Part shown: one piece after another, positions 1 through 26,914 of the stretch
Layout of the letters: every line of letters begins with the position of its first letter
Numbering within the stretch: position 1 is the first letter of the stretch
Assembly: GCA_963706795.1 (NCBI GenBank)
Contig: OY970170.1
Coordinates: 570,001 to 602,000, forward strand
DNA length: 32,000 bases
DNA from: Candidatus Saccharimonadota bacterium
GTDB taxonomy: Bacteria; Patescibacteriota; Gracilibacteria; BD1-5; UBA2023
Direction of reading: 5' to 3'
The notes under the pieces: generated by a model
Seen by the model: the letters and a program-made list of their open reading frames with translations, nothing else
Database searches by the model: none
What the model was told of the DNA's origin: nothing
Program-made: the position numbers and the translations under genes

Positions 1-9
1 AAAGACCAT

Positions 10-552
10 ATGTTTGAGAATCATGAAAAGACTATGCAAAAAGATTGCTTGATTGAAAATTTGGACCATGAAACTACAGAACTTGACCAGAAAGTGATTT
101 TAGTAAGATTAAAAAATATGGGGATCGTAACTTTAAATAATATGAAAGTCATTTTTCTGCTCAAACACACTAATTATACAAATTTTGATGGCAAAAATAT
201 AGGCTATTTCTCGTCTTACGAAAAAGCTCGGTCTGCGTGTTTGACTGTATCACATCAATTAGGCTTTCGAGATTATCCAAATGACTTTGAGATCATTTGT
301 GTACCACTTTATCATCAAAAAGATCAACTACCTAAGCATGCATATGAACTGGTTAAATCAACAGAATTGGATGATGTAGAAAAAACGTATTATCTTGGAA
401 TATTTTGAAAACGTGTAGATGCTGAGCGACACAAAAAAGGGATTTTAAAAGAGAAAAAATCCCAACTTGGTGTATATCGCATAGAAATTGATCGAATCTA
501 CTGGGAGGAAGGATTTATCAGTGTGGAAGAAGCATCGAGTGAGTTTTTGTAA
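10..552 (+). CDS. Hypothetical protein. The small domain resembles orphan immunity-type proteins (KVIFLLKH...DGKNIGYFSSYEKA...GFRDYPNDFEI...YRIEIDRIYWEEGF).
   Basis: ORF 10..408 continues in frame through TGA 406-408 to TAA 550-552. The frame is also open back to base 1, so the true start may lie upstream of the window. Confidence 0.5.
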
Positions 553-566
553 GGATATTACGTTTA

Positions 567-863
567 ATGGCATTTATGAAAATTTCTCTAAATAGTAGAA
601 TTCTTTGCTGTAGTGTACTCTTGATAATCGGCCATTTTTTCCTCTATGACCAACTGACAGTATTAACCGATACTCAAATGCGAGAAGTCGCTGATATGAA
701 TGTAATAAACAACTGAGGCAGTATAAGGCCTCAGTTGTTAGAAGTAGAAGAATGAATCTCCGGCAGCAAAATTTTCACTTATATCATCTCGTATCACAGA
801 TATACAAGACAGACTATCGAAGTCGATAGAAAGTGATACTGTGACACATCGGCCATTTACTAG
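567..863 (+). CDS. Hypothetical small protein with a hydrophobic N-terminus (MAFMKISLNSRILCCSVLLIIGHFF).
   Basis: ATG 567 to TAG 861-863 is open only if three in-frame TGA codons are read as sense. It sits 14 nt after the previous gene and 7 nt before the next. A 10-bp hairpin lies inside it at 710-737. Confidence 0.3.
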
Positions 864-870
864 ATACTGC

Positions 871-1227
871 ATGAAAACCTATTTTTCTGATATTAAAGGT
901 GTCCTCAAGATTTATCTAATAGAGCGATTTGTTTACGCTCTCTGGCTTATGTTTGTTCCTGGCCCAGGATCTATGACGCGATTACCATACTTTTCATTTC
1001 TCGAATCATTTTTTTGATATAACTACTCTCCAATAATCGCTCTCATCTCAAGCATAATCGTTATTCCCACTTTATTTTGGTTATACGAAAAGTTTCTAAA
1101 GAAAACCATTGCATTGTCGTATAGAACCTTATATATCTTAATTGGATACATAGCTTTCCTTCATCTATTTTTATACCTACATAGGGCATTTTTTGGATGC
1201 ATATCGTATTGTCTAGCCTTCCATTAA
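871..1227 (+). CDS. Hypothetical small membrane protein.
   Basis: ATG 871 to TAA 1225-1227 has one in-frame TGA near 1012. It contains hydrophobic stretches (YSPIIALISSIIVIPTLFWLY, LYILIGYIAFLHLFLYL). Confidence 0.45.
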
Positions 1228-1242
1228 AAATCCTCAACAACT

Positions 1243-2043
1243 ATGTCATATCTCGGACTTTCATTTTTCTCAAAGAGTGAGTATATTACCATACCTCAGG
1301 ATAACTATCACATATATACAAAGCTCTTTAGTAACTGTTTTTGAGCTATTAAAGTGCCCGATGTACGAACTCGGGGATACGGTCAAGATAATTTCTTGAA
1401 CATTTGGCTAACGACTGGTCCAAGTCTTCCAATAAATAGGGAGGCTTGGGAGTGATTTATGGAACTTCTCGAGTGAGATCATTCAATAGTACCTTGATTT
1501 CAACTCAGAGATGCAGTCATGATTGGTCACATAGATTGGGAACACTATTTGGTGCTTGAATCGCCATTAAATATTGAACAAATAACAAAGAACCAGTCAT
1601 TCATAGAATTTGTTTATCTACCAAATAAACAAGCATCTAGCATTTGAGGTATTTTTGATTTGGCGCAAGACGATATCATGCGTGATATTATTCAGGGCAA
1701 ATACGGTGCTTTATTTCTTGGTTTAAAGTCCTATCCAATACCGAGCTTTACATGCCCATGCTGCGGATTTATAACCCTCCATGAGGATCATCATGTATAC
1801 GAAATATGTGAAGTCTGTGACTGGGAAGATGATCCAGTGCAATTTGAATTCCCTGATTCTCCATCTTGAGCTAATAAGTGATCCCTTCGACAGAATCAAA
1901 ATTCTTTTCTTTCCACCCAATTTTCCGATCAGGAAAACTATCTTGGTTATTTAAAGGACAAAAATTGGAAACCTCTTTCTCCAACTAGTGCACCGAAAGA
2001 TGGAGGAATATCTAGCGGATTAGATTATTTTAATGCTGCTTAG
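1243..2043 (+). CDS. Cysteine-rich CPCC-domain protein with a roughly 140-aa N-terminal extension.
   Basis: An 801-nt frame in AT-rich DNA has no TAA or TAG and seven in-frame TGA codons. The C-terminal part reads CPCCGFITL...YEICEVCDWEDDPVQ...SPS-G-ANK-G-SL, which matches the CPCC zinc-ribbon family pattern (CPCCG..T.....YEIC.VC.WEDD...GGAN..SL). Confidence 0.7.
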
Positions 2044-2083
2044 GACCCAATGAAGTTGCAAATGTTCACACTGACGGCACAAT

Positions 2084-2509
2084 ATGATCCTACTTTATCT
2101 TAGAGAAGAAGCCGATGGCACAATTTATTCAAGAAAACTTATAACTAATCTATCTATGAAACATGCTTGTCCCTGCTGTGGATTTCAAACAATAGATTCG
2201 TACTGAGACTACGATATTTGCGACGTATGTTTTTGGGAAGATGATCCTGCGCAGGCTGCACGCCCGTACTCACCATACTGAGCAAACTGAGAGTCCTTAG
2301 TTGATTATCATGTAGCGGCACTTGCTAATGTGCCTGAAAATATACTCACGTTTACAAAGTGAGGTGTTATCTTTCATCGTACTCAGAACTGGAAGTATAT
2401 ATTTGACTCATTCATTAAAAGTAGGTCAAACAGTGATTCAAACGACATGAACAGATATATACAAGATACTGAATTTATTTATAGTTTTGATGATATATCA
2501 AATGAATAG
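2084..2509 (+). CDS. Second cysteine-rich CPCC-domain protein.
   Basis: It reads MKHACPCCGFQTIDSY-G-DYDICDVCFWEDDPAQ...SPY-G-AN-G-ESL, with four in-frame TGA codons and stop TAG 2507-2509. The start is ATG 2084 or ATG 2156. Confidence 0.65.
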
Positions 2510-4128: not shown

Positions 4129-6543
4129 ATGCAGGAAGTCCTTCTCGTTCTCGCAGTTTTGCTCATCCTCTGAATTTTTGGTGGGGGCTTTGTATTTTTA
4201 CAAAAAAGACGCCGTTTTGACCACATGCTCGGCATGGTGTTTTTGCGTGTTCTCCTGCCACGCAAGGACAGCGATGCAGACGAAAAAAAGGAAACGAGTC
4301 GTGACTTTAAAGAGCAAGTGAGTCTCATGGAACAGCTCTTGTCATCACTTCGCTCCATCGGTCAGGGATCAATTTTTGCTCGTGCACTGGGTGGTAGATC
4401 CTTTTCGCTCGAGATCGTAGCAAATGAGCAGGAGATATTCTTTTATGTGGTCGTACCCAAAGAGATGCGACTCCTCTTCGAAAAGCAGATCACAGGATTT
4501 TATCCAGATGCGGTGATCGATGCGACTCCAGAGGTGAATATCTTTGAATGACGCAAGAGTGTCAAAGGTGTCGAACTTGTCCTTAAAAAGCCATATTTCG
4601 AGCCGATTAAGACCTATCAAAAGCTCGAGTCCGATCCTATGAATCCTCTCGTAGGTGCTTTAGGGAAGCTCTCTATGGGTGAATCCGCTGTAGTGCAAAT
4701 TCTTCTCCGACCGGTGGCAGATACGTGGCAATCAAAGTCATTTAAATACGAGTGAAAACTTGGTGGTGCACATTTTAGTTGGAATCCATTGGATATTCTC
4801 TCCAAATTTTTAAATGGCGTTGATGAAAAGTCTGCCGATCCAAAATCCGAAGGAGGCGATGAAAAAGCCAATACCCGCGAGCTCGTCAAAGAGAAGGCAA
4901 AAAAGAGCGGATTTGAAGCAACTCTGAGACTCATTGCGAGCGGTCAAAATGACATGATGACTGAGTCGATCGTATCTAATATTGCATCTGCGTTCTCCCA
5001 GTACAGTGCACCAGGATTTAATAGTATCAAGGTGTCAAAGCCTCACTATTTTGACGCATTTGTCCGAGATTATGTATTTAGAGCCTGTCATGGTGGATTT
5101 TTTGCGCACCATGATATTTTTTCGGTTGAGGAAATCGCTTCACTCTTCCATTTTCCACACTCAAAATACAACCGCTCGGCCGAGATCAAATGGCAGAATT
5201 TTAAGATCATGAAGGCACCAGTAAATATTCCAACTGAGGGGATATTGCTTGGGTATAACAACTTCCAGGGAAATACGCGGGAGATTCGCATCAAGAATGA
5301 GGATCGATTCCGGCACTTCTATGTTATTGGACAGACGGGTACGGGTAAGTCGTCGATTTTGCAGGTTATGGCGAGACAGGATATTAGTCTCGGACATGGG
5401 ATGTGTGTGATTGACCCGCATGGAGACCTTGCCATGGATCTCTTGCCATTTGTTCCACGAACACGTGCGGATGATGTCATCTATTTTGATCCGGCAGATG
5501 TCGCTCGACCGATGGGTATTAATATCCTCGAGGCTTCGACTGACGACGAAAAGCAGATGGTAGCACAGGACTCGCTCAATATCATGATTAAGCTCTTTGG
5601 TCCCGAGATATTTGGTCCGCGTATTCAGGACTATTTCCGTAATGGAGTACTGACACTTATGGATTACCCGGGTGGGTGTGCGCTTACGGATATCCTCCGA
5701 TTGTTTACGGATGATGAATTCCAAAAAGAACGCCGTCGAACGATTAAGGATCCGGTGGTGCGCGCTTGGTGGGACTTCACATTTGCAAAGATGGGAGATC
5801 GAGAAAAGGGTGAGATTATCCCATACTTTGCGGCGAAGTTCGGTGGATTTATTACGAACAAGCTGATGCGTAATATCATTGGTCAGACGAAGAGTTCCTT
5901 CGACATTTTGGACAGCATGCAAAGCTCAAAGATCCTCTTTGTAAATCTCTCAAAGGGAGTACTCGGAGACTTTAATTCGAATCTCTTGGGTCTGATCCTC
6001 GTATCTAAAATCCAGATGGCGGCCATGCGTCGCCAGACATTAGAAAAAGAGCTCCGCAAAGACTTCTTCCTCTATATCGACGAATTCCAGAACTATATCA
6101 CCGAATCGATCGAATCCATCCTCTCCGAAGCTCGTAAATATCGTCTCGGACTGATTGTAGCCCACCAGTATCTTGGTCAGCTCCAAAAGTCAGATTCACT
6201 CACGAAGTCCAATGTTAATCTTAAGGATGCGATCTTTGGTAACGTCGGATCTATGATGTCTTACAAGGTCGGACCAGAGGATTCTGAATTTCTCGAGAAG
6301 CAGTTCGCACCGGCATTCACCGGACGTGATCTCGTTAATATGGACAAATTTAAGGGCGTGATGAAGCTTGCGGTCGACGGACAGCCAACACCAGCATTTA
6401 GTATGACGCCCGTCAATCCATATCTCGAGCTCGGTGATAAAAAACTCGCAAAGGCCTTCAAGGAATTATCCAGACTCAAATACGGCCGCGAACGAGAGTT
6501 TGTTGAGAAGGAGATTAATTTCCGTATCGGGGCTTCGCAGTAG
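4129..6543 (+). CDS. Membrane-anchored FtsK/HerA-superfamily P-loop ATPase of VirB4/VirD4 (type IV secretion) type, paralog A.
   Basis: Three track fragments join in one frame through TGA 4171, 4549 and 4753. It has an N-terminal TM helix (VLLVLAVLLILGIFGGGFVFL), Walker A GQTGTGKSS, CVIDPHGDL, Walker B FFLYIDEFQNY and ARKYRLGLIVAHQY. It is collinear with the gene at 21573..24497. Confidence 0.8.
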
Positions 6544-6568
6544 GAATCGATTCTAAATATTTTAAAGT

Positions 6569-7540
6569 ATGCGCGTTAAATCTCTCTTCGCTCTCGCTAC
6601 CTTTGGTGCGTTTTTGATGGTGCACGCGGACAATGTCGATATTGGTACCTATGACGCCTATAAAGACGAGGTCAAAAACTTCTGTGAAAGCAAGGACCGA
6701 CCATGGAATAGCAGCCAGGTGAGAGATACAAAAAATCCTCTTCTCAAATACAGCTCGATTATCTATCCCGATATCACGAATCCAAACTCGGATGCGCAGT
6801 TTACAGGACTACTGGATACGACAAAAGGGAGTAAAGAAGAACTCAATGCCATCCTCGATCTCCAGAGCAAATATATGCCTCTTGCGAGCGAAATCGAAAA
6901 ATCGTCCGCTATTTACAAAGAGCGAATGAACTCGATATATGCCTGTGCTGTGCTCAATACAAAGCTTCGTATTCATACAAAGCTCATGGATACGTTCAGG
7001 CCTACAGGATCAAATATCGTAAATCGATTGAAGCAATCATCTGATCAAATTACTCGTCGTATTGATGAGCTTCAGTGTCGAAATATTGCCAATGATGGCG
7101 GCGATGGAGCAGAGCTTTCGCTCAAAAAAGAAATCATCGGTCAAACGACCTACGAATACTGTAATTATCGCCACTATCTCTACTATGTAGATTATAGCGT
7201 GAAGCACCGCCTTGGAGATGTGCTCTCCACGATGAAAAAAAAGAAGGCACTCTTGAATGGTGCTACAGACGAATACGATCAATTTAAAACGACTGATTCT
7301 GTTGCGAAGGGGCTCGCGGAGGTGGCAACCAGAGCTGATAGCGAAATTGCGAGAACTCGAGATGTGTATAGTGCCGCATTTGATTCGTATACAGACTTTG
7401 AGCGTAACTATGCCTCACATGTTATCATGATCCTGATTGAGGATCGTTATGCGCTTTTGCGAGATTTTTTGAGAGAGACGATGAATCCTATCGGACAAGT
7501 TATCTACCTAGCATCCAATGCCACAAGCACAGGGAAGTAG
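6569..7540 (+). CDS. Secreted hypothetical protein.
   Basis: The 323-aa ORF is intact and starts 25 nt after the ATPase. It has a Sec-type signal peptide (MRVKSLFALATFGAFLMVHADN) and several Cys residues. I recognise no family. Confidence 0.6.
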   Translation: MRVKSLFALATFGAFLMVHADNVDIGTYDAYKDEVKNFCESKDRPWNSSQVRDTKNPLLKYSSIIYPDITNPNSDAQFTGLLDTTKGSKEELNAILDLQSKYMPLASEIEKSSAIYKERMNSIYACAVLNTKLRIHTKLMDTFRPTGSNIVNRLKQSSDQITRRIDELQCRNIANDGGDGAELSLKKEIIGQTTYEYCNYRHYLYYVDYSVKHRLGDVLSTMKKKKALLNGATDEYDQFKTTDSVAKGLAEVATRADSEIARTRDVYSAAFDSYTDFERNYASHVIMILIEDRYALLRDFLRETMNPIGQVIYLASNATSTGK

Positions 7541-8880: not shown

Positions 8881-9948
8881 CTATTGGAATACGGTAAAGT
8901 CGAGTGCTTCAGAAGTCGTAAGTTGTTGGATTTTTTTGATGCGAGTACGCTTAAATCCTGATCTATATCCTTCGGCCGAAACACTTGTGTACTGCGAAGG
9001 AATCAAAGTATTTAACTCGAGATTTTGATTGGTGATTGTATCGACTCCGTAGCCAAAAAACTGAATAGCCGACAGTCCGCCGATATTGTTTGCCACACGC
9101 CTAACTCGGTATTCGAGATAGGGAAGCACTTGTCCGGTTTCACTCTTCAAAACATTAGCGACCGTGAGCTTGAGCGTACATCCTGACGCAACACAATTAC
9201 CGAGCTCAGAACTATAGAGCGAATCCAGTGATCCTGTATTTCCGAGAACATTGTCGCGGGCAATCATGTTTTTAAGCTGCGGCGTGGGATCGGTGTTGAT
9301 GCGATTGATACTGCTCGCATCGTAGACTGCAGTGAGTCCAGTTGTACCAACAGAACTCATATTTGGCATGAGTGTGGTCTTGCCATCCGAAATCACCCAA
9401 AAGACGACTGGATAGAGTGTACTATTGGTAAAAAACCGAGTTGCGGGCGAATCAAGCGGCGTAAGAATATCAGTATTCGTCGCTGTTTTTGACTGAACTT
9501 TTGGCACTCGTAAATCGAGCTGAAATTCATTTAAAAACGTTGCCCCGTAATTCTTGGGAATAAAGAGCTGTACAGGAGCTCATGGACCTATTTGATTCCA
9601 GTTTTTGTCGTATTCGCTGTTACCCGTTCATGGGAGCGGTATAGCATTGGTGAGTTCAGAAATATTGTAACCACCTGTAGCGGTAGTCATACTTGTGGGT
9701 AGGGTATTCGCATTTTTGGGACCAGAAATGCTGTGTCCTGGATTGCGAAGATTGAGAGTAGCGAGGGCTTTTTCGATTTGGGCGGAGGCTTCGTAGTAGG
9801 CGATGGTGGAATTCTCGATACCGCGGACATTTCGAGAGAGAGGAACTATATGATCCAAGAGCCCGATCATCACGATGATGAGGGTTCCAGTGATGAATAT
9901 ACTCACTAAGAGAGCAGATCCTCGAGATTGTCGCGATAGATTTCTCAT
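8881..9948 (-). CDS. PilX-like minor pilin / pseudopilin-associated protein.
   Basis: ORFs 9628..9948 and 8881..9507 join through two TGA codons. The N-terminus (SRGSALLVSIFITGTLIIVMIGLL) resembles the PilX N-terminal segment. Its stop lies 1 nt before the rluD-like start. Confidence 0.5.
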
Positions 9949-9949
9949 G

Positions 9950-11449
9950 CTAATTATCGAGCGTTACGGTAGTGGCGATCGTGACTTCTGGATTTTGGAT
10001 TTTGAGTTTGCGGCGGCGTTCCCATCCAAATCCGAGTGTTGTCGTAAAACGTACATATCCTGCGATCGAATATCCAGGACTTACTTCTTTCCAAGAAAAG
10101 TGATAGTCCTTTGCAGGCACGGGGAAGAATTTGATATTTCGCACATCGACATCCGCATCGAACAGGCTTACCCATTCTGAGTCTTTGCCAGTGGGAAGAT
10201 TGCGGGTAATTGAACCAATGGTAATTGGAGTGCAATTAAAATCCGGATGACATTCCCATGTATCAACCTTACCATCAAAGAGACCTCCAGTATTGCTCGC
10301 AGTGATTCATTCGTGGGCGAAACCGGCGTCCTTTCAGACGAGACGGAGCATTTCGAGTCGACCGATACAGCCACTTCCGGTACCATTTTGGGTGTTGCAT
10401 CCATAGCCTGCTGGAGCATTTGGATCGAGTTCTACACGTCTACGAAGCAGGATTCGTTCGAGCCCGCGATCGGTTTTTTTAATGAGGTAGAGTTCGGAGA
10501 GTCCACTGCTTCCCGAAAAAGCTTCTGGACCCACTCCAAGGTCTTCGTCATCGTCATCTCCGGTGATATTGCCGTCACAATTGGCATCTCCGAGGTCTCA
10601 AGTCTTCCCTTTGGCAGTACAGACATTTATATCGTTGTTTTCGTCGCTGTTATAATCAAAGAATTGTGTCTTGTATTCGCCATATCTTTGCGGGCTGCCA
10701 ATCTCTACCGCTTGTGCATTATTAAAAGTGCTGATCGAAAAACATCCGTTAGTCCCCATATTGACGCCTACTCCGCTTCTGCAAAAATAGCTTCCAGATC
10801 CAAATTGCGAGGTACCGATTGAGCCGCCATTTCAGTAGTTTCCATAGCCTGTGGGATCGCGGTAGTGTCCACCTGAGAGAGTGAGTCCGACCATTGTGCG
10901 ATTAAAATATTCCTCATAGTCGATAGTTCCACCTTCCTTAATAGTCGTGGCGAGTTTTTCGCTCGCGGTATAGAGTTGTTCATTGATATCGATACGTCAT
11001 TCAACGAGATTGCGAGCTACACCTATATTGCCAAGGGCGGTAAATGCCATGACCATCAAAATGGCAAAAAGCGTAATCGACATGATCATTTCGATCAATG
11101 TGAAGGCCTTCGGCTTCTTGGTATTTTTGTGAATCTCAGAGGATTCAAACGAACTATTTTTCTTGAAGAAGAAGGAAAGAAATGATCCAATGCTGCGTCC
11201 TATACCAATACCGGTAGGGAATTTCCAAAATGTCTTTGGCCAGTCATGAACAAAGTAGTGAAGACTCTCAAGAAAATGACTTTTTCGGAGGAGTTTTCGT
11301 TCTTCTTTCGTGAAGGGTATAGTTACAATAAGCCAGAGACTATGAATGATCGCTTCGAAAAATCCGTAGACAATACGGAGGAGCGAAAAGAAAGAGTTTT
11401 GCTCGAGTGGATGGCGATTCATGCGGACATCTAACGACATTTGATGCAA
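9950..11449 (-). CDS. Large type IV pilin-like protein (pseudopilin) with an internal prepilin motif.
   Basis: One frame runs through five TGA codons to TAG 9950-9952. It carries HKNTKKPKA-FTLIEMIMSITLFAILMVMAFTAL, the class III signal / N-methylation motif with Glu5, followed by a Cys- and Asp-rich globular part (DANCDGNITGDDDDED). The start is uncertain: TTG 11449 or ATG 11440, with no canonical start near the motif. Confidence 0.7.
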
Positions 11450-19926: not shown

Positions 19927-21434
19927 TTACTTCTCCCCTCTATATGACAGCGCTTCTGCGACATGTGCAAGGGTGATTTCATCGGCGTCTTCGAGATCGG
20001 CAATGGTTCGGGCTACGCGGATAAGCCGGTAGTAACTGCGCATGGAGAGTGAGAGTCTCGCGACGGCGTCTTTGAGCATCTTCATGCCGTCGGGGCGGAT
20101 GTAGCAGAGTTTTTCGACTTCTTTGGGGGTGATTTCACTATTACATTCCTTGGCAAGACCAAGGAATCGCTTTCGCGCCTTTTGACGAGCAGCATTGACG
20201 CGGATCTGGAGTTCTTCGTGGTTGCTGGTGTGCGGGTGCTTTCGATTTCTTCGACTTTAAGTCTGGGAACATTGACGAAGAGATCGATGCGATCAAGAAT
20301 AGGTCCAGAGAGTTTGGCGCGGTATTTTTCGATATCACGTTCACTGCATGAGCAGGGTTTTTCGGGATCTCAGAGATAACCACAGGGGCATGGATTCATG
20401 GCTCCGATGAGGAGGAATTTTGCCGGATAGGTAAAACTTGCATGGACTCGCGTGACCGTGATTGTGCCATCTTCGAGTGGCTGTCTGAGCATTTCGAGGA
20501 GGTGTCCATCAAACTCGAGGAATTCATCCAAAAAGAGTACTCCGCGGTGCGCGAGACTGACTTCTCAGGGGCGAGATTTGGTTCCGCCGCCAATAATACT
20601 TACTCCGCTTGCCGTATGATGTATTTTGCGGAATGGACGAGTTTCAATAAGTGGAGTTTTGCGGTCCAGAAGTCCTGCGACGGAATAGATCTTTGATACG
20701 TCCAAAATCTCATCAAAGCTCATCTCCGGAAGAATCCCTTCGAGTGCTTTTGCAAGCATAGTTTTGCCCGATCCTGGTGGCCCCTCAAGGAGAATATTAT
20801 GTCCTCCAGCTGCGGCGATAAGGAGCGCTCTTTTTGCTCGATCTTGCCCACGAATGGATGCAAAGTCTACTTCGGGAATGGAACGTTCTTTTGGTTTGTG
20901 AGGGGTGGGGGTAGTGAGTTCACCGGTCTTTTGGATGTATTCGACAACCTCGTTAAGGCTTTCGGCTCAGAGCACGCTGATCCCTGGGACGAGCGATGCT
21001 TCGTCGAGATTTCATTTGGGAATAACCACACAGGATGCGCCGTGAGATTTTGCAAATAGGATCGCTGGAAGTACTCATGCAATCTCTCTAATTTTGCCAT
21101 CGAGTGCGAGTTCTCATAAAAAATATGTCGTAGCGAGATCGCGTTCGCTTACGATATTTTCACCCAGCAAAATCCCGAGAGCGATGGGGAGATCAAAAGA
21201 AGGTCCGGATTTGCGAGTGTCTGCGGGTGCGAGATTTACCGTGATTCGCTTTGATGGAAAACTATACCCAGAATTCTTTATAGCACTGCGAACGCGCTCA
21301 CGACTTTCTTGTACAGCAGCATCACCGAGTCCAACAATTGAAAAAGCGGGAATACCCGTTGCGATATCCACTTCTACGTCTACTCGTTGTCCCGACAAAC
21401 CCTGAATGGCAATAGAACCGATCAATTGCATCAT
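19927..21434 (-). CDS. comM: ComM/YifB Mg-chelatase-like AAA+ ATPase with an apparent frameshift (possible pseudogene or assembly error).
   Basis: The N-terminal part is [41 protein letters not shown]. It has Walker [13 protein letters not shown] and [17 protein letters not shown]. The conserved C-terminus ([13 protein letters not shown]...[32 protein letters not shown]) lies in the -1 frame from about 20256 down to TAA 19927-19929. Confidence 0.8.
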
Positions 21435-21572
21435 GCGCACAAAAAAAGGAGATAAATGCGCGCTATTTCTCCGAGAATACACACGATTTTGTGTCTGTAA
21501 AGGCAAAAGCACATGCACAAATTTGCGACAGCCCTCGCTTCGTGGTAGCATAAAGGAAACGTAACCTTCGAT

Positions 21573-24497
21573 ATGTTCTTCGAACTCATTGCTACTGCCC
21601 ATGCGGCAGGTATTGCTGGTGCAGGAAAAACTGCCGGTAATGCTCCCCAAAAAACTACACAAGCTACTGCATCAGGTGGTACCGACTTTGTGGATATTCT
21701 CATGAATGTCCTTTCGGTGATCTTTAATGTCGTCTTGCTCCTCATTCTTTTGTTTCTCCTGCTCAAGCTGATACGCGTGATGTATGAGATCTACAATGCT
21801 CGACGCCTTGTCTATATGCGCGTCACACTTCCACGTGCGGACTCCAAGCTCGACAAAGAGAAGGAAACCAAAAAAGACTTCAAAGAAAAGATGGGAATCA
21901 TGTCCATTTTTTATAAGTCGATCCACAAAGTTTCAAATATCACTTTTTGGGATTCACTCAAGGATTTTATATTTGATCATGCGAAAGTTTCGCTCGAGCT
22001 TATCTATTCGGATGGTCAGCTTTCGTTTTATATCGTGACTTATCGCGATTACGCGAGCCTGATTACACAGCAGATTACTTCTAACTATCCGGATGCGGAG
22101 GTATGTATTATTAAGGCTTCGCAATTTCCTGATATCAAGCCTGCGGGCTTCACGCTCCGAGCAGCTTCGATTGGAAAAGTAAATGATGATATTTTCCCGC
22201 TTAAGACCTACAAATATTTTGAAGACGATCCACTCTCGACGCTTACTAACAATTTTGGTTCGCTTAAAAAGACGGACAAGGCAGCATTCCAAATTGTTGT
22301 AAAACCGCGTGGTTCTTCTTGGAATAAAAAAGCCAAAAATGCTGCCGGAATGGTAGCAAAAGGACAATACAAGAAGGGCTCCAAGGACAGTTTTGTATGG
22401 GAGGCGATCAAGATGCTTTTTGCACCGATCGTTTGGATATTTGATATGTTCACGAATACGCCAGGCGATGGTTCGACTGCGGCTCCAGGTGCGGCTTCTG
22501 GTGACTCGTACAAGATCTTTAATCAGGCAGAACAAGAATCCCACAAGGCTGTCGGTGAATCCGCAGGTCAGCCAGGATATCAGGCTTCGCTGCGACTTCT
22601 GGTCTCGTCCGATGACTCGATGAGTGCAAAAAATGCGCTCGAAAGTCTCGTCGGCGCTATGTCGATGTTTACTGACGAATACAACAACAAGCTCGATAAT
22701 CCTCAGATCGAAGACGCACTGGCATTCTTTTTTGCTCCGATCCGCTACTTTGCGTATAGATTCCGAATGATTGGGTTTTTGCAGGCAAAGAGCGTGTTTT
22801 CGGTTGATGAACTTTCGACGATTTACCACTTTCCAGACATTAACTACAACAAGTCGCCGATCCTGAAGTGGCTCGAATACAAGATGATCGCTCCACCACA
22901 CAATCTCAAAGTACTCAAAGATAAGCTCGTTCTCTCAGATTACCGACGCGATGCAACTGGAAATGTCCTCACCGAAGATCCTACCGTTGTCCTTGCTGTA
23001 GACGAAAACAAGATTTTAAAACGCGATGAAGGTCGCAATTTTGTGAGTACCACCGGCGAGATTGTGCCAATCCATCAGGATGGTCCTGATAAGGGGAAGG
23101 CGATTGATCCGACTAAAAATCCAATTGCCGAAGAAAAGCATCGTCATCTCGGTGGCTTCCCACTCTATACCGATGGAGTGCTCATGGGATGGAATGAATA
23201 CCGCAATACCAAAACTCCGATTTATTTCTCTCGTAAGGACCGAGGACGTCACCATTACGTCATTGGTAAATCAGGAGGAGGTAAGTCAGTATTCCTCTCA
23301 TACCTTGCTCGCCAGGATCTCTGGAATGGCGATGGACTCTGTGTGATTGATCCGCATGGCGATCTCGTAGAAGATATCATTGCGTATGCTCCAAAAGAGC
23401 GTGCCAAGGATATCATCATCTTTAATCCTGCCGACTACGAGCGCCCAATGGGACTTAATATGCTCGAGGTTATCTCGACGGATCCTGCCCTCCGTGCTGT
23501 CGAAAAAGACCGTGCCGCCCTCGATGCGACATCGATATTCATCAAGATCTTTAATGAAGAAGTCTTCGGACCACGAATCCAGCACTATTTCCGAAATGGA
23601 TGTCTCACTCTCATGGATGACGAAGACGAAGGAGGAACACTCATCGACGTACCACGTCTCTTTGTCGATGATGCCTTTATGAAATACAAAGTCTCCAAGG
23701 TTAAAAATCCAGTCGTAAAGGCCTTCTGGGAACATGAATACGCCAATACAGGAGATCGTGAAAAACAAGAAATGATCCCGTATTTTAGCTCGAAGTTCGG
23801 ACCATTCATTACAAATACAACCATCCGTAATATTATCGGTCAGCCAAAGTCGGCCTTTAATCTCAGATCCGTAATGGATGACCGTAAAGTGCTCATGGTC
23901 AATCTCTCAAAGGGTATGATCGGTGATCTCAACGCTCAGCTTCTCGGTCTGATCTTTGTCTCAAAGATCAATATGGCAGCGATGTCTCGTGCCGATATTC
24001 CAGAGGATCAGCGAAAGGATTTCTTCCTCTATGTCGACGAATTCCAGAACTTCGCGACCGATACTTTCGGCGAAATCCTCTCCGAAGCCCGCAAGTACCA
24101 CCTCGCCCTCATCATGGCGCACCAGTACATCGCACAGATTGGCTCAGCGAAGGGTAAATCCGACAAGCCATCGATCAAAGATGCTGTATTCGGGAATGCC
24201 GGAACTATCATGAGTTTTAAGGTGGGTGCCGAAGATGCCGAATACCTCGAAAAGGAATATGCTCCACTGCTCTCACAGCAGGACATTATTGGTATCGCCA
24301 ATTACACAACCTACTGCAAACTCAATATCGACAATGCGACGACTCGTCCATTCGATATGAAGACCATCTGGGATAACAGTTACAAAAACCCAGAAGTTGC
24401 CAAGATCATCAAAGAATATTCTCGAAAAATGTATGGGCGCAAAAAGGAATACGTCGACATGGAGATCGAGGCACGTCTTGGAATTATGCCGAGTTAA
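21573..24497 (+). CDS. Membrane-anchored VirB4/VirD4-like P-loop ATPase, paralog B.
   Basis: The 974-aa ORF is intact and has no in-frame TGA. It has a TM helix (VLSVIFNVVLLLILLFLLLKLI), Walker A GKSGGGKSV, CVIDPHGDL, FFLYVDEFQNF and ARKYHLALIMAHQY. It shares with paralog A the N-terminal block (Y/F)(M/L)RVxLPRxDSxxDxxKETxKDFKE and the FSV(D/E)ExxxxxHFP block. Confidence 0.85.
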   Translation: MFFELIATAHAAGIAGAGKTAGNAPQKTTQATASGGTDFVDILMNVLSVIFNVVLLLILLFLLLKLIRVMYEIYNARRLVYMRVTLPRADSKLDKEKETKKDFKEKMGIMSIFYKSIHKVSNITFWDSLKDFIFDHAKVSLELIYSDGQLSFYIVTYRDYASLITQQITSNYPDAEVCIIKASQFPDIKPAGFTLRAASIGKVNDDIFPLKTYKYFEDDPLSTLTNNFGSLKKTDKAAFQIVVKPRGSSWNKKAKNAAGMVAKGQYKKGSKDSFVWEAIKMLFAPIVWIFDMFTNTPGDGSTAAPGAASGDSYKIFNQAEQESHKAVGESAGQPGYQASLRLLVSSDDSMSAKNALESLVGAMSMFTDEYNNKLDNPQIEDALAFFFAPIRYFAYRFRMIGFLQAKSVFSVDELSTIYHFPDINYNKSPILKWLEYKMIAPPHNLKVLKDKLVLSDYRRDATGNVLTEDPTVVLAVDENKILKRDEGRNFVSTTGEIVPIHQDGPDKGKAIDPTKNPIAEEKHRHLGGFPLYTDGVLMGWNEYRNTKTPIYFSRKDRGRHHYVIGKSGGGKSVFLSYLARQDLWNGDGLCVIDPHGDLVEDIIAYAPKERAKDIIIFNPADYERPMGLNMLEVISTDPALRAVEKDRAALDATSIFIKIFNEEVFGPRIQHYFRNGCLTLMDDEDEGGTLIDVPRLFVDDAFMKYKVSKVKNPVVKAFWEHEYANTGDREKQEMIPYFSSKFGPFITNTTIRNIIGQPKSAFNLRSVMDDRKVLMVNLSKGMIGDLNAQLLGLIFVSKINMAAMSRADIPEDQRKDFFLYVDEFQNFATDTFGEILSEARKYHLALIMAHQYIAQIGSAKGKSDKPSIKDAVFGNAGTIMSFKVGAEDAEYLEKEYAPLLSQQDIIGIANYTTYCKLNIDNATTRPFDMKTIWDNSYKNPEVAKIIKEYSRKMYGRKKEYVDMEIEARLGIMPS

Positions 24498-24526
24498 TAC
24501 GGATTAATGCTATGTTGCCATTTATG

Positions 24527-24562
24527 AATCCCGCGCTACAATGTGCGGGATTTTCTTTTTTC
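24527..24562 (+). terminator. Intrinsic terminator or attenuator between the ATPase and the pilin-like gene.
   Basis: Stem AATCCCGC / GCGGGATT has a 10-nt loop and is followed by TTTTCTTTTTT. It ends 6 nt before ATG 24568. Confidence 0.6.
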
Positions 24563-24567
24563 TTCTC

Positions 24568-25581
24568 ATGAATCGCCTCCTTTCTCGAGTACTTGCGACG
24601 TTGATGCTGACTTTTGCATTTGGTGGAATAGCTTTGCCAGTCTTTGCGGACACGGTATTTACACCGACGAGCAGTCGTGAAGAGCTCGACTTCCAAAATG
24701 GTCGCCGAGAATGAAATGCCCGCGAGAGCTATGCGGATACTGATTTTATATCCTCGATTGAATGATCTTTTGGATCTACTTTTGGAAATACATTCTCATA
24801 TTTTAGAGCGAGTAGCACTGGAGAGCGAGGCGCATATGCACTGTTTATAAATATCGCAAGGGATGCTAAAAACCTCTTTGTATTTGTCGCGATTCTTTAT
24901 TTGGTTATCTCAGTCCTCCGCATGCTGTTTTCGGGTGGATCGGACGAAGACATCAAAAAATGGCGCAATACGATACTTTGGACGACGATCGGTATCATCG
25001 TCATGCAGGCAGCCTTTGTCTTTGTAGATACGCTCTATAACAAGAATGTAAACGGATTTACGTCGATGCTCTTCCTCGACAAAATGGTCTATCCATTTGT
25101 CCATTTACTCGAGATATTGGCATCATTTGGATTTCTCGCAATGGCGTTCTTTGCATTCTTCCGCATTGTTACAGCTGGAGGTGACGAAGAAATGGTCAAA
25201 AAAGGAAAACAAACCATCATTTCTGCGCTCATTGGATTTATTATTATGAAGCTCCCTGCGGTCCTCGTTAAGAGCATCTACGGAGAAGCAAAGTGTGATG
25301 CACCACTGCTCTTTAGCATCTGTCGTATTAAAGATCCAAATCTCTCAGGCGCGATCAGCGTGATGACGAGTATCATAAATTACATTAATGGATTTCTCGC
25401 GATTGTTATCGTTGTGCTCGTCCTCTATGCAGGATGGCTCGTCCTCAGCTCTGGCGGCGACGATGAGAAAATTAAACAAGCAAAAAAGATCCTTCTCTAT
25501 ATCGTTATTGGAGTTGTGCTCTTGGTGTCGAGCTATATTTTGTTTAACTTCTTTGTACTGAAAGACGTGTCTGCCAGTTAG
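24568..25581 (+). CDS. Secreted or membrane protein with three tandem VirB2/TrbC-like T4SS pilin hairpins.
   Basis: ATG 24568 joins ORF 24901..25581 through two TGA codons. It has a signal peptide (MNRLLSRVLATLMLTFAFGGIALPVFA). A TM, polar loop, TM unit occurs three times: LFSGGSDEDIKKWRNTILWTTIGIIVM, IVTAGGDEEMVKKGKQTIISALIGFIIM and VLSSGGDDEKIKQAKKILLYIVIGVVLL. Confidence 0.7.
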
Positions 25582-25594
25582 ATTCACCAAAAAT

Positions 25595-25625
25595 AAAAGA
25601 CCTCGCTGTGAGGTCTTTTATTTTG
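25595..25625 (+). terminator. Intrinsic terminator.
   Basis: Stem AAAAGACCTC / GAGGTCTTTT has a 5-nt loop and a T-rich tail. Confidence 0.7.
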
Positions 25626-26543: not shown

Positions 26544-26627
26544 TGGTGCCCGAAGAGAGACTTGAACTCTCACACCTTGCGGCAACGGCTTCTAAGACCG
26601 TCGTGTCTACCATTCCACCATCCGGGC
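26544..26627 (-). tRNA. tRNA-Leu (anticodon UAG), class II with a long variable arm and encoded CCA.
   Basis: Hand fold of the minus strand gives acceptor GCCCGGA/TTCGGGC, anticodon stem ACGGT/GCCGT with loop CTTAGAA, and T arm GAGAG-TTCAAGT-CTCTC. Confidence 0.85.
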
Positions 26628-26745
26628 GGAAACTTTCGATCTTTAGGGTGTACTTTTATTTTGCCCGTCCTTCGCTAAAGCTTCGGAGGGCATTTTTCGC
26701 TTAAACTTAATGGCGTGCTGTTTGGAGCTCCGAAGGAGCGAAAAA

Positions 26746-26830
26746 TGGTGGGCCGGGTAGGGATCGAACCTACGAAGGCGAAGCCAAAGGATTTACAGTC
26801 CTCCCCATTTGACCACTCTGGAACCGACCC
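26746..26830 (-). tRNA. tRNA-Tyr (anticodon GUA), long variable arm and encoded CCA.
   Basis: Acceptor GGGTCGG/CCGGCCC, anticodon loop CTGTAAA, variable hairpin GGC-TTC-GCC, and T arm GTAGG-TTCGATC-CCTAC. Confidence 0.85.
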
Positions 26831-26838
26831 GAAAAAAA

Positions 26839-26914
26839 TGGAGCCACCAGTCGGAATTGAACCGACGACCCACGGTTTACAAAACCGTTGCTCTACCAAC
26901 TGAGCTATGGTGGC
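26839..26914 (-). tRNA. tRNA-Thr (anticodon UGU), encoded CCA.
   Basis: Acceptor GCCACCA/TGGTGGC, D arm GCTC/GAGC, anticodon stem ACGGT/ACCGT with loop TTTGTAA, and T arm GTCGG-TTCAATT-CCGAC. Confidence 0.9.

What the first reader, a model, noticed from the sequence alone, without database searches (positions are those of the whole stretch)
21573..25581. Module B: paralogous ATPase plus a multi-pilin protein, divergent from comM; a candidate CPR-specific pilus or DNA-transfer system
Paralog B (974 aa) is collinear with paralog A. The shared blocks are YMRVTLPRADSKLDKEKETKKDFKE, FSVDELSTIYHFP, the Walker A and B motifs, and AHQY. It carries an insertion of about 80 aa before Walker A.

A hairpin plus T-run follows it, ending 6 nt before the next gene. 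That could work as an attenuator setting ATPase-to-pilin stoichiometry. The next gene encodes VirB2-type pilin hairpins.

The module is transcribed divergently from comM, a transformation-associated helicase. An ATPase, a pilin-like substrate and a DNA-processing neighbour together fit an uncharacterised minimal DNA-uptake, DNA-transfer or host-attachment apparatus in an episymbiotic lineage.
Basis: inference. Interest (0 to 1): 0.72.

Follow-up and report, generated by a model that had tools for sequence, protein, structure and literature searches.

The report
Secretion ATPase plus fused triple pilin
This gene pair from a tiny, host-dependent Gracilibacteria genome encodes a conjugation-type (type IV secretion) motor ATPase and an unusual protein made of three pilin units fused in a row; it belongs to a secretion system already described in related bacteria, not to a new kind of machine.

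Summary
The window uses genetic code 25 (TGA = Gly). Gene 21573-24497 encodes a 974-aa membrane-anchored ATPase of the VirD4/TraG coupling-protein family, with an N-terminal DUF8128 domain. It is collinear with paralog A (4129-6543) and carries an extra ~87 aa. A hairpin plus T-run follows it. The next gene (24568-25581, two in-frame TGA) encodes a signal peptide plus three tandem T4SS_pilin (PF18895, VirB2-like) helical hairpins. comM lies divergently upstream.

In Gracilibacteria orthologous loci, 40 of 55 have the triple pilin directly downstream. The others have SpoIIE-VirB4 there, and three have both. So this is a detached piece of the Patescibacteria type IV secretion system described in 2023-2025, not an autonomous minimal apparatus.

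comM adjacency is confined to one subclade (21 of 47), and comM is frameshifted here. The hairpin is not conserved. Its loop is a TACAAT -10 box, which fits a terminator overlapping a separate pilin promoter better than an attenuator.

Two features appear undescribed in the papers I could search: the ancient three-in-one pilin fusion and the coupling-ATPase-pilin operon. Verdict: new variant of a known kind, moderate interest.

The parts
19927..21434 (-). comM (Mg-chelatase-like AAA+ helicase), transcribed divergently. It carries a 1-nt deletion near 20218/20219 that shifts the C-terminal Mg_chelatase_C part into another frame.
   Evidence: Pfam PF01078 at 302 bits and PF13541 at 156 bits. Sequence and frames. 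DNA alignment to L002 shows ACCA-CG against ACCACCG.
21435..21572 (.). 138-nt divergent intergenic region between comM and the ATPase gene. It is presumed to hold both promoters.
   Evidence: Coordinates. One minus-strand promoter-like match at 21501-21474. Function is inferred.
21573..24497 (+). ATPase B, a 974-aa VirD4/TraG-family (coupling-protein-like) ATPase. Layout: one TM-like segment at aa 37-75; DUF8128 domain at aa ~79-445; lineage-variable insert at aa 446-532; P-loop ATPase at aa 533-974.
   Evidence: PF02534 at 46.3 bits (cut-off 20.1) and PF10412 at 27.5 bits. PF26449 DUF8128 precomputed on the identical database protein P0001. Hydropathy. Foldseek top hits are TrwK/VirB4 then Cag-beta. 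PDB sequence hit to TrwB.
23265..23288 (+). Walker A motif (GKSGGGKS, aa 565-572) of ATPase B.
   Evidence: K571 and S572 are invariant (G570 too in the 8-sequence alignment).
24021..24050 (+). Walker B region (FFLYVDEFQN, aa 817-826) of ATPase B.
   Evidence: D822, E823, F824, Q825 and N826 are invariant.
24515..24542 (+). Sigma-70-type promoter-like site, TTGCCA-16 nt-TACAAT. The -10 hexamer is exactly the hairpin loop.
   Evidence: 10 of 12 consensus matches. The same element is present in L002. TANAAT hexamers are enriched 27-39 nt upstream of pilin starts in related long spacers: 15 of 20 against 7.9 +/- 1.8 in shuffles.
24526..24561 (+). Intrinsic-terminator-like hairpin (11-bp stem, 6 G-C pairs, 6-nt loop) plus T-run, ending 6 nt before the pilin ATG.
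   Evidence: The identical stem is in L002. It is not conserved in most other loci.
24568..25581 (+). Triple pilin gene, 337 aa under code 25. Signal peptide (aa 1-27, VFA|D), a ~65-aa exported N-region, then three tandem VirB2-like helical hairpins (aa ~96-156, 173-239, 262-334) with turns at GGSD, GGDE and GGDD. Two conserved Cys lie between hairpins 2 and 3. In-frame TGA (Gly) codons at 24712-24714 and 24763-24765.
   Evidence: PF18895 x3 at 63.4 bits, PF04956 at 19 bits (below cut-off), NF045849 at 50.3 bits. The AlphaFold model has six long helices forming three hairpins, pLDDT 72. Seven hydrophobic segments. Alignment A3.
25590..25624 (+). Strong terminator-like hairpin (15-bp stem) with a U-run after the pilin gene.
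   Evidence: -18.7 kcal/mol, z = -6.2, 0 of 200 shuffles fold as well.
4129..6543 (+). Paralog A of the ATPase (804 aa, three TGA codons). It lies outside the finding and is followed by an unrelated secreted 323-aa protein (6569-7540).

Best explanation

Gene 1 encodes a membrane-anchored P-loop ATPase of the VirD4/TraG/TrwB coupling-protein family. It carries a family-specific cytoplasmic N-domain (DUF8128). By analogy with TrwB it would act as a ring ATPase at the cytoplasmic face of the secretion channel.

Gene 2 encodes a Sec-exported polytopic membrane protein made of three different VirB2-like pilin hairpins joined in one chain. That fixes a 1:1:1 ratio of three pilin types. It is the likely building block of the pilus or conduit this system makes, which is unusual for a single-membrane bacterium.

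The remaining parts, VirB4 above all, are encoded elsewhere in this genome. They sit next to the pair in relatives.

Expression is decoupled. The ATPase gene ends in a terminator-like hairpin. A promoter-like site has its -10 box in the hairpin loop. Transcripts starting from it would begin inside the 3' arm and so escape termination, letting the structural pilin be made in excess of the motor.

Shown: family assignments, domain anatomy, conserved gene linkage, and the sequence signals. Inferred: ring assembly, pilus formation, the role of each ATPase, promoter use, and the transported substrate.
For: ATPase family:
- PF02534 at 46.3 bits against a cut-off of 20.1, and PF10412 at 27.5 bits.
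- The only PDB sequence hit is TrwB.
- tblastn finds 230 plasmid records at 25-35% identity, annotated as T4SS DNA-binding or conjugative DNA transfer proteins.
- A B. subtilis plasmid homologue lies directly upstream of a Replic_Relax relaxase, TcpC, TcpE and a VirB4-like ATPase.
- The Foldseek top 14 hits are R388 T4SS inner-membrane-complex entries, 13 of them near-full-length TrwK/VirB4-size chains (E down to 6e-7), followed by Cag-beta.

Pilin:
- PF18895 in three stretches (63.4 bits) and NF045849.
- The model shows three helix-turn-helix hairpins.

Linkage:
- 40 of 55 Gracilibacteria orthologous loci have a 3x pilin gene directly downstream. Many have 3x + 3x + 1x pilin genes, confirmed with Pfam for L037.
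- VirB4 lies 1-4 genes downstream in 17 loci, including 3 with the order ATPase-pilin-radA-rpmE-SpoIIE-VirB4.

Age of the fusion: same-rank hairpins are 41-52% identical across genomes; hairpins within one protein are 18-21% identical.

Chromosomal, not mobile: neighbours are proS, rluD, a two-component system, an ABC exporter, tRNAs, cobW and ZIP. There is no relaxase or integrase, and GC is even.

Expression signals.

Literature: the T4SS and its pilin array are essential in Southlakia (PMC10633639). The survey found 5,713 VirD4 homologues in 2,918 Patescibacteria genomes, mostly far from virB4 (PMC12102498).
Against: - No VirB4, VirB6 or other channel gene lies within this 32-kb window. I could not show that this genome has VirB4 (one search was saturated by close relatives).
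- Canonical coupling proteins are not needed for pilus biogenesis, so a tight operon with a pilin is not what that family predicts.
- The ATPase domain was modelled poorly (pLDDT 40-67). The fold matches have low TM-scores (0.18-0.25), and the best ones are VirB4 rather than VirD4.
- Foldseek found no significant PDB match for the pilin model.
- The promoter is only a consensus match.
- In Southlakia the VirD4 homologue was reported as not essential, whereas the pilins were (PMC12102498).
Confidence: 0.7

Rival explanations
1. The ATPase is not a substrate-coupling protein. It is the dedicated motor for the pilin, doing a VirB4-like dislocase or assembly job: it extracts the triple pilin from the membrane and feeds it into a growing fibre. 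The pair would then form a pilus-biogenesis unit within the larger system. This overlaps with the best explanation and differs only in the role given to the ATPase.
For: - Spacers between the ATPase and pilin genes are as short as 2-4 nt, and 22 of 42 are 31 nt or less.
- The linkage holds in 40 of 55 loci.
- The best fold matches are full-length VirB4/TrwK (about 800-890 aligned columns, E 6e-7), ahead of the VirD4-type Cag-beta (E 0.018).
- The two-domain layout (N-domain plus C-terminal ATPase) resembles VirB4.
- Coupling proteins have no known role in pilus biogenesis (established knowledge of VirB/D4 systems).
Against: - Sequence profiles place it with VirD4/TraG (46 bits), not VirB4 (TIGR00929 at 13.8 bits).
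- hhalign of this family against the co-resident VirB4 family finds only the Walker motifs (probability 60%). The DUF8128 profile shows nothing against the VirB4 N-domain.
- A separate bona fide VirB4 exists in relatives.
- One clade lost the pilin from this position but kept the ATPase next to VirB4.
- The Bacillus homologue sits next to a relaxase in a pilin-less system.
Confidence: 0.2
2. One reading: the ATPase, the pilin and comM form an autonomous minimal DNA-uptake or DNA-transfer apparatus. comM would process the DNA moved by the ATPase along or through the pilus.
For: - comM is divergently adjacent in 21 of 47 evaluable loci.
- radA, another recombination helicase, sits just after the pilin gene in L007, L030 and L051.
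- Competence and recombination genes (comF, recG, radA) near T4SS genes are reported for the ABY1 class (PMC12102498).
- The ATPase family is DNA-translocating in conjugation (established knowledge).
Against: - comM adjacency maps to one contiguous part of the ATPase tree and is absent from the other large Gracilibacteria clade, from the SR1/Absconditabacteria-type loci and from the Peribacteria-type loci. That fits inherited gene order rather than selection.
- comM is frameshifted here.
- There is no channel, relaxase or DNA-binding receptor in the pair.
- VirB4 co-localises in relatives, which argues against autonomy.
- In Southlakia, DNA uptake depends on type IV pili and ComEC, not the T4SS (PMC10633639, PMC12857230).
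Confidence: 0.07
3. The 24526-24561 hairpin is a regulated attenuator. It would set the ATPase-to-pilin ratio by controlled read-through of a single bicistronic transcript.
For: - A canonical stem plus T-run lies 6 nt before the pilin ATG.
- It is conserved in the closest relative, L002.
- Hairpins with T-runs occur at the same position in about 10 other loci.
Against: - The hairpins in other loci are unrelated in sequence.
- 22 of 42 loci have spacers too short for any hairpin.
- No alternative antiterminator pairing or leader peptide was seen in the 70-nt spacer.
- The loop is a TACAAT -10 box with TTGCCA at the right spacing.
- -10-like hexamers cluster 27-39 nt upstream of the pilin start in loci with long spacers (P about 0.0005). 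That favours a terminator plus a separate promoter.
Confidence: 0.1
4. The pair is a decaying remnant of an integrated conjugative element and has no present function.
For: - The closest non-CPR homologues are on plasmids.
- The adjacent comM is frameshifted.
- ATPase B uses no TGA codons, unlike its neighbours (P = 0.0016).
Against: - Both genes are intact.
- They are 60-90% (ATPase) and 36-74% (pilin) identical to the listed Gracilibacteria homologues, in conserved chromosomal positions.
- No integrase, relaxase or repeats flank them, and GC content matches the surroundings.
Confidence: 0.03

Closest known systems
Patescibacteria (CPR) type IV secretion system, e.g. Southlakia epibionticum SEML1_0006-0019 (Wang et al. 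2023, PMC10633639; survey by Quinonero-Coronel et al. 2025, PMC12102498; review PMC12857230)
   Same: - A chromosomal T4SS derived from single-membrane conjugation machinery, with no relaxase nearby.
- It carries VirB2-like pilins (PF18895), which Gram-positive systems normally lack.
- VirD4-like homologues are usually encoded away from virB4.
- Several sequence-divergent pilins are present per genome.
   Different: - Here the divergent pilins are fused, three per polypeptide, instead of forming an array of separate small genes.
- The VirD4-like gene is directly coupled to the pilin gene.
- The published survey was centred on virB4 and notes that Gracilibacteria components are mostly not near virB4. 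It does not describe this pair.
VirD4/TraG/TrwB type IV coupling proteins (Pfam PF02534, PF10412; TrwB structure 1E9R)
   Same: - An N-terminal membrane anchor.
- A P-loop NTPase with Walker A and B motifs.
- A helical insertion between the two motifs.
- A family HMM score above the curated cut-off.
   Different: - A ~370-aa DUF8128 domain and an 87-aa insert lie between the anchor and the ATPase.
- No relaxase partner is present.
- It forms an operon with a pilin.
- Two paralogs exist per genome.
DUF87-annotated 886-aa ATPase of Bacillus subtilis plasmid NZ_CP032854.1 (Tcp/ICEBs1-type conjugation cluster)
   Same: - Collinear two-part architecture: 26% identity over 412 aa of the ATPase domain (E 9e-31), plus a weak N-domain match in the same order (E 0.005).
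   Different: - The plasmid gene is followed by a Replic_Relax relaxase, TcpC, TcpE and a VirB4-like ATPase.
- That cluster has no pilin.
VirB2/TrbC/TraA conjugative pilins and the Mbov_0395 pilin-like family (PF04956, PF18895, NF045849)
   Same: - A signal peptide.
- Two hydrophobic helices joined by a short charged loop.
- The predicted topology puts both ends outside the cell.
   Different: - Three such units sit in one 337-aa chain, each with its own conserved sequence.
- Two conserved cysteines lie in an exported linker.
- There is no evidence for processing or cyclisation.
VirB4/TrwK ATPase of plasmid R388 (PDB 8RTD, 7O42, 7O43)
   Same: - It is the best structural match to the whole-protein model, aligned over about 800-890 columns.
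- It has the same layout of an N-domain followed by a C-terminal ATPase.
   Different: - TM-scores are only 0.18-0.25.
- There is no profile-level sequence similarity beyond the Walker motifs.
- A separate true VirB4 exists in relatives.

Membership tests
Type IV coupling protein (VirD4/TraG/TrwB) | Match to the family profile above the curated threshold | tested here: met
   PF02534 at 46.3 bits against a cut-off of 20.1, covering aa 559-895. PF10412 at 27.5 bits against 20.5. NCBIfam TraD and CD1115 models match only partially and far below their cut-offs.
Type IV coupling protein (VirD4/TraG/TrwB) | N-terminal transmembrane anchor followed by a cytoplasmic P-loop domain with Walker A and B motifs | tested here: met
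   Hydrophobic segment at aa 37-75. GKSGGGKS and FFLYVDEFQN have invariant core residues (K571, S572; D822-N826) across 49 sequences.
Type IV coupling protein (VirD4/TraG/TrwB) | All-alpha domain inserted in the nucleotide-binding domain | tested here: inconclusive
   The model shows seven helices at aa 638-755, between Walker A and Walker B. pLDDT there is only 40-68. The PF10412 match covers only its first 70 positions.
Type IV coupling protein (VirD4/TraG/TrwB) | Genetic association with a relaxase and/or a VirB4-containing T4SS | tested here: inconclusive
   Neither is in the 32-kb window. VirB4 lies 1-4 genes downstream of the orthologue in 17 related loci. No relaxase was seen next to the pair in the relatives whose flanking genes I read (L001, L011, L051, L066, L079).
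Type IV coupling protein (VirD4/TraG/TrwB) | Recruits substrates (DNA-relaxase or effectors) to the channel | not testable with these tools
   This needs genetics or biochemistry.
VirB2/TrbC-like T4SS pilin (PF18895 T4SS_pilin) | Match to the family profile above the curated threshold | tested here: met
   PF18895 at 63.4 bits against 26.6, in three stretches. NF045849 at 50.3 bits against 40. PF04956 reaches only 19.1 bits against 27.9.
VirB2/TrbC-like T4SS pilin (PF18895 T4SS_pilin) | Signal peptide plus a hairpin of two hydrophobic helices with a short loop | tested here: met
   Signal peptide with a VFA|D site. The AlphaFold model has helices 20-55/60-92, 97-136/141-172 and 193-228/233-269, each pair joined by a 4-residue turn. 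Hydropathy.
VirB2/TrbC-like T4SS pilin (PF18895 T4SS_pilin) | Small single-hairpin subunit (about 70-150 aa) | tested here: not met
   The protein is 337 aa with three hairpins. The three-hairpin form is conserved: 66 of 103 pilin ORFs in the loci have exactly three domains.
VirB2/TrbC-like T4SS pilin (PF18895 T4SS_pilin) | Structural similarity to solved conjugative pilins | tested here: inconclusive
   Foldseek against the PDB gave no match with E below 0.5. Short helical hairpins are poorly discriminated by this method.
VirB2/TrbC-like T4SS pilin (PF18895 T4SS_pilin) | Polymerises into an extracellular pilus | not testable with these tools
   This needs cryo-ET, proteomics or multimer modelling.
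Transcription attenuator | Terminator hairpin plus a competing alternative structure or a sensing element, conserved among orthologous loci | tested here: not met
   The terminator-like hairpin is present, but it is conserved only in L002. 22 of 42 spacers are 31 nt or less. No alternative pairing was found.
ComM (YifB) transformation helicase | ChlI N-domain + Mg_chelatase AAA+ domain + Mg_chelatase_C in one reading frame | tested here: not met
   The first two domains are present. The C-terminal part is in another frame because of a 1-nt deletion relative to L002. This could be an assembly error.

The most novel reading that the evidence does not exclude
In Gracilibacteria the several divergent VirB2-like pilins, which other Patescibacteria encode as arrays of separate genes, have been welded into three-in-one polypeptides. 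These have been stable since before the sampled radiation, and they are co-transcribed with a DUF8128-VirD4-like ATPase.

Read as a Rosetta-stone fusion, this would mean two things:
- The divergent pilins of CPR arrays co-assemble as obligate hetero-oligomeric building blocks of one fibre or conduit. They would not serve as antigenic or host-range alternates, as has been proposed.
- The extra VirD4-like ATPases of CPR genomes, whose role is unknown and which were non-essential in Southlakia, are pilin-handling motors rather than DNA or effector receptors.
Probability: 0.2. Interest if true: 0.65.

Novelty: new variant of a known kind. Interest (0 to 1): 0.42.

Why it matters
The T4SS is one of the few machines shown to be essential for the epibiotic life of cultivated CPR bacteria. 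What it transports, what its pilins build, and what the widespread stray VirD4-like ATPases do are all open questions.

This locus gives two handles on those questions:
- A conserved fusion fixes three different pilin hairpins in one chain. That argues for co-assembly and is directly testable by multimer modelling, junction-spanning peptides in existing metaproteomes, or cryo-ET.
- A conserved operon ties one VirD4-like paralog to the pilins and, in relatives, to VirB4.

It also shows that annotating Gracilibacteria with the standard code hides the N-terminal third of the pilin gene.

Tried and rejected
- The standard-code ORF list breaks many genes. I replaced it with code 25 after checking TGA positions.
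- The look-up of encoding contigs had no record for the exact ATPase protein.
- I tried to show VirB4 in the same genome by searching with a relative's VirB4 and looking for the 1,267,896-bp contig fingerprint. The top 120 hits were saturated by 70-93% identical proteins and none carried it. This is unresolved, not negative.
- I tested DUF8128 against the VirB4 N-domain by profile-profile alignment, twice. Only the Walker motifs aligned (probability 60%), and the N-domains gave nothing (probability 0.4%). The VirB4-like reading therefore rests on Foldseek alone.
- A PDB sequence search with the pilin profile gave only weak matches to three chains of unannotated (one of them Helicobacter HP_1076) proteins.
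- Foldseek of the pilin model gave generic helical bundles.
- radA linkage is present in only 3 closely related loci.
- I looked for pilins next to the SR1/Absconditabacteria-type and Peribacteria-type ATPases. None were adjacent. L079 has two single pilins 4.5 kb away on the other strand.
- I looked for a pilin in the Bacillus plasmid cluster and found none.
- An integrated-element origin is rejected for lack of an integrase, a relaxase or a GC shift.

Full report
**Genetic code and gene map**

The standard-code ORF list fragments the window. Allowing TGA as a sense codon restores long genes. TGA falls on the P-loop glycine of both CobW paralogs (GFLgAGKTT) and on conserved glycines of RluD and the response regulator. 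All 16 complete genes checked end in TAA or TAG. The window therefore uses code 25, and the closest database proteins are from Gracilibacteria.

Pfam on code-25 translations gives the gene map:
- proS
- ATPase A (4129-6543) and a secreted 323-aa protein
- rluD
- two type IV pilin-like proteins
- a sigma-r4/HARE-HTH protein
- a two-component system
- an HlyD-ABC-MacB exporter
- comM (minus strand)
- ATPase B
- the pilin gene
- three tRNAs
- two cobW genes
- a ZIP transporter

There is no relaxase and no integrase. GC content is even across the module.

**The observation**

- ATPase B (21573-24497, 974 aa) is collinear with A. Identity is 50% over the C-terminal 442 aa and 27% over 373 N-terminal aa. 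B residues 446-532 have no counterpart in A.
- The hairpin (stem 24526-24536 / 24543-24553, T-run to 24561) ends 6 nt before the next ATG, which is at 24568.
- The next gene runs to 25581 and contains two in-frame TGA codons.
- comM lies at 19927-21434 on the minus strand, 138 nt from the ATPase start.

**What the ATPase is**

- The C-terminal half matches the coupling-protein family PF02534 above its cut-off (46.3 against 20.1 bits), and also PF10412. VirB4 and HerA models score far lower.
- The identical database protein carries PF26449 (DUF8128) over the N-terminal half.
- One hydrophobic segment (aa 37-75) anchors the protein.
- The DUF8128 region alone finds 1,070 representative clusters at E <= 0.001. 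The full-length members are 750-1,080 aa with the domain at the same position.
- The profile hits only TrwB among PDB sequences.
- The ATPase domain finds 230 plasmid records at 25-35% identity, annotated as T4SS DNA-binding or conjugative-transfer proteins.
- In B. subtilis plasmid NZ_CP032854.1, the homologue is 886 aa with 26% identity in the ATPase domain and a weak collinear N-domain match. It lies directly before a Replic_Relax relaxase, TcpC, TcpE and a VirB4-like ATPase. That is the position of a coupling protein in a Gram-positive conjugation cluster.

An AlphaFold model built on 49 sequences is confident for the N-domain and the insert (pLDDT 70-92) but poor for the ATPase domain (40-67). 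Its best PDB matches are full-length TrwK/VirB4 of R388 (E 6e-7, about 800-890 columns, TM 0.18-0.25). Cag-beta follows at E 0.018.

Profile-profile alignment against the VirB4 proteins of the same lineage finds only the Walker motifs, and nothing for DUF8128. I therefore file the protein as a VirD4/TraG-family ATPase with an extra N-domain. The VirB4-like layout remains an open lead.

**What the downstream protein is**

- PF18895 (T4SS_pilin) matches in three stretches at 63.4 bits, and NF045849 at 50.3 bits. PF04956 (TrbC/VirB2) is below its cut-off.
- The protein has a signal peptide (VFA|D), then six more hydrophobic segments.
- The AlphaFold model (pLDDT 72) has six long helices paired into three hairpins, with four-residue turns at GGSD, GGDE and GGDD.
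- Two cysteines in the exported linker between hairpins 2 and 3 are nearly invariant.
- Foldseek found no significant PDB match. I treat this as uninformative for short helical hairpins.

**Comparative evidence**

A scan of one genome per species returned 80 loci. I translated them with code 25 and searched them with the window proteins and with an iterated single-hairpin HMM.

- Among Gracilibacteria B-type orthologues with enough downstream sequence, 40 of 55 have a three-hairpin pilin gene immediately after the ATPase gene.
- In one large clade the order is ATPase, 3x pilin, a second 3x pilin, then a 1x pilin. Pfam confirms this for L037.
- Fourteen of the loci without the pilin have a SpoIIE-type phosphatase and a VirB4 gene directly downstream instead.
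- L007, L030 and L051 have ATPase, 3x pilin, radA, rpmE, SpoIIE, VirB4.

The pair is therefore physically tied to the signature T4SS ATPase in relatives. The SR1/Absconditabacteria-type and Peribacteria-type homologues group with B rather than A in a rough neighbour-joining tree, which suggests an old A/B duplication. They have no adjacent pilin.

Hairpins of the same rank are 41-52% identical across genomes. Hairpins within one protein are 18-21% identical. The triplication is therefore old, and each hairpin is individually conserved.

**comM**

Divergent comM adjacency occurs in 21 of 47 evaluable loci, all in one part of the tree. Here comM carries a one-base deletion relative to the 90%-identical relative L002. 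The deletion separates the C-terminal domain into another frame. radA adjacency is confined to three close relatives.

Published work notes competence and recombination genes near T4SS genes in another CPR class (PMC12102498). A DNA-related role is therefore not excluded, but the present data fit inherited gene order.

**The hairpin**

- Of 42 adjacent ATPase-pilin pairs, 22 have spacers of 31 nt or less and some only 2-4 nt. Roughly ten have terminator-like hairpins, and these are unrelated in sequence.
- Only L002 shares this hairpin.
- The loop is TACAAT, with TTGCCA 16 nt upstream.
- In the 20 loci with spacers of 40 nt or more, TANAAT occurs in 15 (shuffles 7.9 +/- 1.8) and TGNTANAAT in 6 (shuffles 0.5). 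Most lie 27-39 nt before the pilin start.
- A strong terminator follows the pilin gene (z = -6.2).

The best reading is a terminator for the ATPase gene overlapping a promoter for the pilin gene. This decouples their expression without attenuation. It remains an inference from sequence.

**Comparison with what is known**

The Patescibacteria T4SS is published. Its features include a relationship to single-membrane conjugation machinery, VirB2-like pilin arrays essential in Southlakia, no relaxase, and thousands of VirD4 homologues mostly far from virB4 (PMC10633639, PMC12102498, PMC12857230). T4SS subunits are detected in Gracilibacteria proteomes (PMC11452946).

The papers I could search do not describe pilins fused three per chain. 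They also do not describe the VirD4-like-pilin operon of Gracilibacteria. The survey was centred on virB4 and remarks that Gracilibacteria components are mostly not near it.

**Verdict**

The finding is real and correctly read at the level of its parts. It is a lineage-specific variant of a known system rather than a new apparatus.

- The most likely mechanism is a membrane ring ATPase working with VirB4 and a heteromeric three-hairpin pilin subunit that builds the T4SS fibre or conduit. The pilin would be expressed from its own promoter.
- The main live alternative is that this ATPase paralog is itself the pilin-handling motor.
- Interest is moderate. It rests on the fusion as evidence that the divergent CPR pilins co-assemble.

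Noticed in passing
window 20218-20219 (comM, minus strand, 19927-21434): comM has a single-base deletion relative to the 90%-identical relative L002 (ACCA-CG against ACCACCG). The Mg_chelatase_C end is therefore read in a different frame. This is either a pseudogene or an assembly error.
   Followed up: partly
window 21573-24497: ATPase B uses no TGA among its 61 glycine codons. The other 16 genes use TGA for 49 of 489 glycines (P of zero = 0.0016). Orthologues in other genomes do contain TGA. proS and the 323-aa secreted protein also lack TGA.
   Followed up: partly
window 1-2509: A low-GC stretch (0.35-0.36 against 0.42-0.51 elsewhere). It has short ORFs in shifting frames and two Cys_rich_CPCC (PF14206) proteins, at 1228-2043 and about 2084-2509. 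It may be a foreign island.
   Followed up: no
window 4129-7540: Paralog A is followed by a secreted 323-aa protein with no family match. The same pair recurs in L003, L009 and L018. So 'module A' is also a conserved pair, but its partner is not a pilin.
   Followed up: partly
window 8881-11422 (minus strand): Two adjacent genes for type IV pilin-like proteins. One has an N_methyl motif (PF07963, KAFTLIEM). They belong to the type IV pilus or type II secretion class, which is a different pilus system from the T4SS pilin.
   Followed up: no
L007, L030, L051 (about 1 kb to 6 kb downstream of the ATPase gene): These relatives show the gene order ATPase B, 3x pilin, radA, rpmE, SpoIIE-type phosphatase, VirB4. 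A membrane PP2C phosphatase always precedes VirB4 in these loci, which hints at phospho-regulation of the system.
   Followed up: partly
L083 6032-8692 (B. subtilis plasmid NZ_CP032854.1): An 886-aa protein annotated only as DUF87 is a collinear homologue of the CPR ATPase. It sits in the coupling-protein position before a Replic_Relax relaxase, TcpC, TcpE and a VirB4-like ATPase. The plasmid is typed as non-mobilizable by MOB-suite, as are 204 of the 230 plasmids with a homologue.
   Followed up: partly
window 24568-24765, and database protein P0124: The database copy of this pilin protein from the same 1.27-Mb contig is only 192 aa long. The N-terminal part, including the signal peptide and the first hairpin, appears to have been lost in gene calling.
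   Followed up: no
window 26544-26914 (minus strand): A tRNA cluster, Leu(TAG), Tyr(GTA) and Thr(TGT), lies about 1 kb downstream of the pilin terminator. It separates the module from the cobW genes.
   Followed up: no
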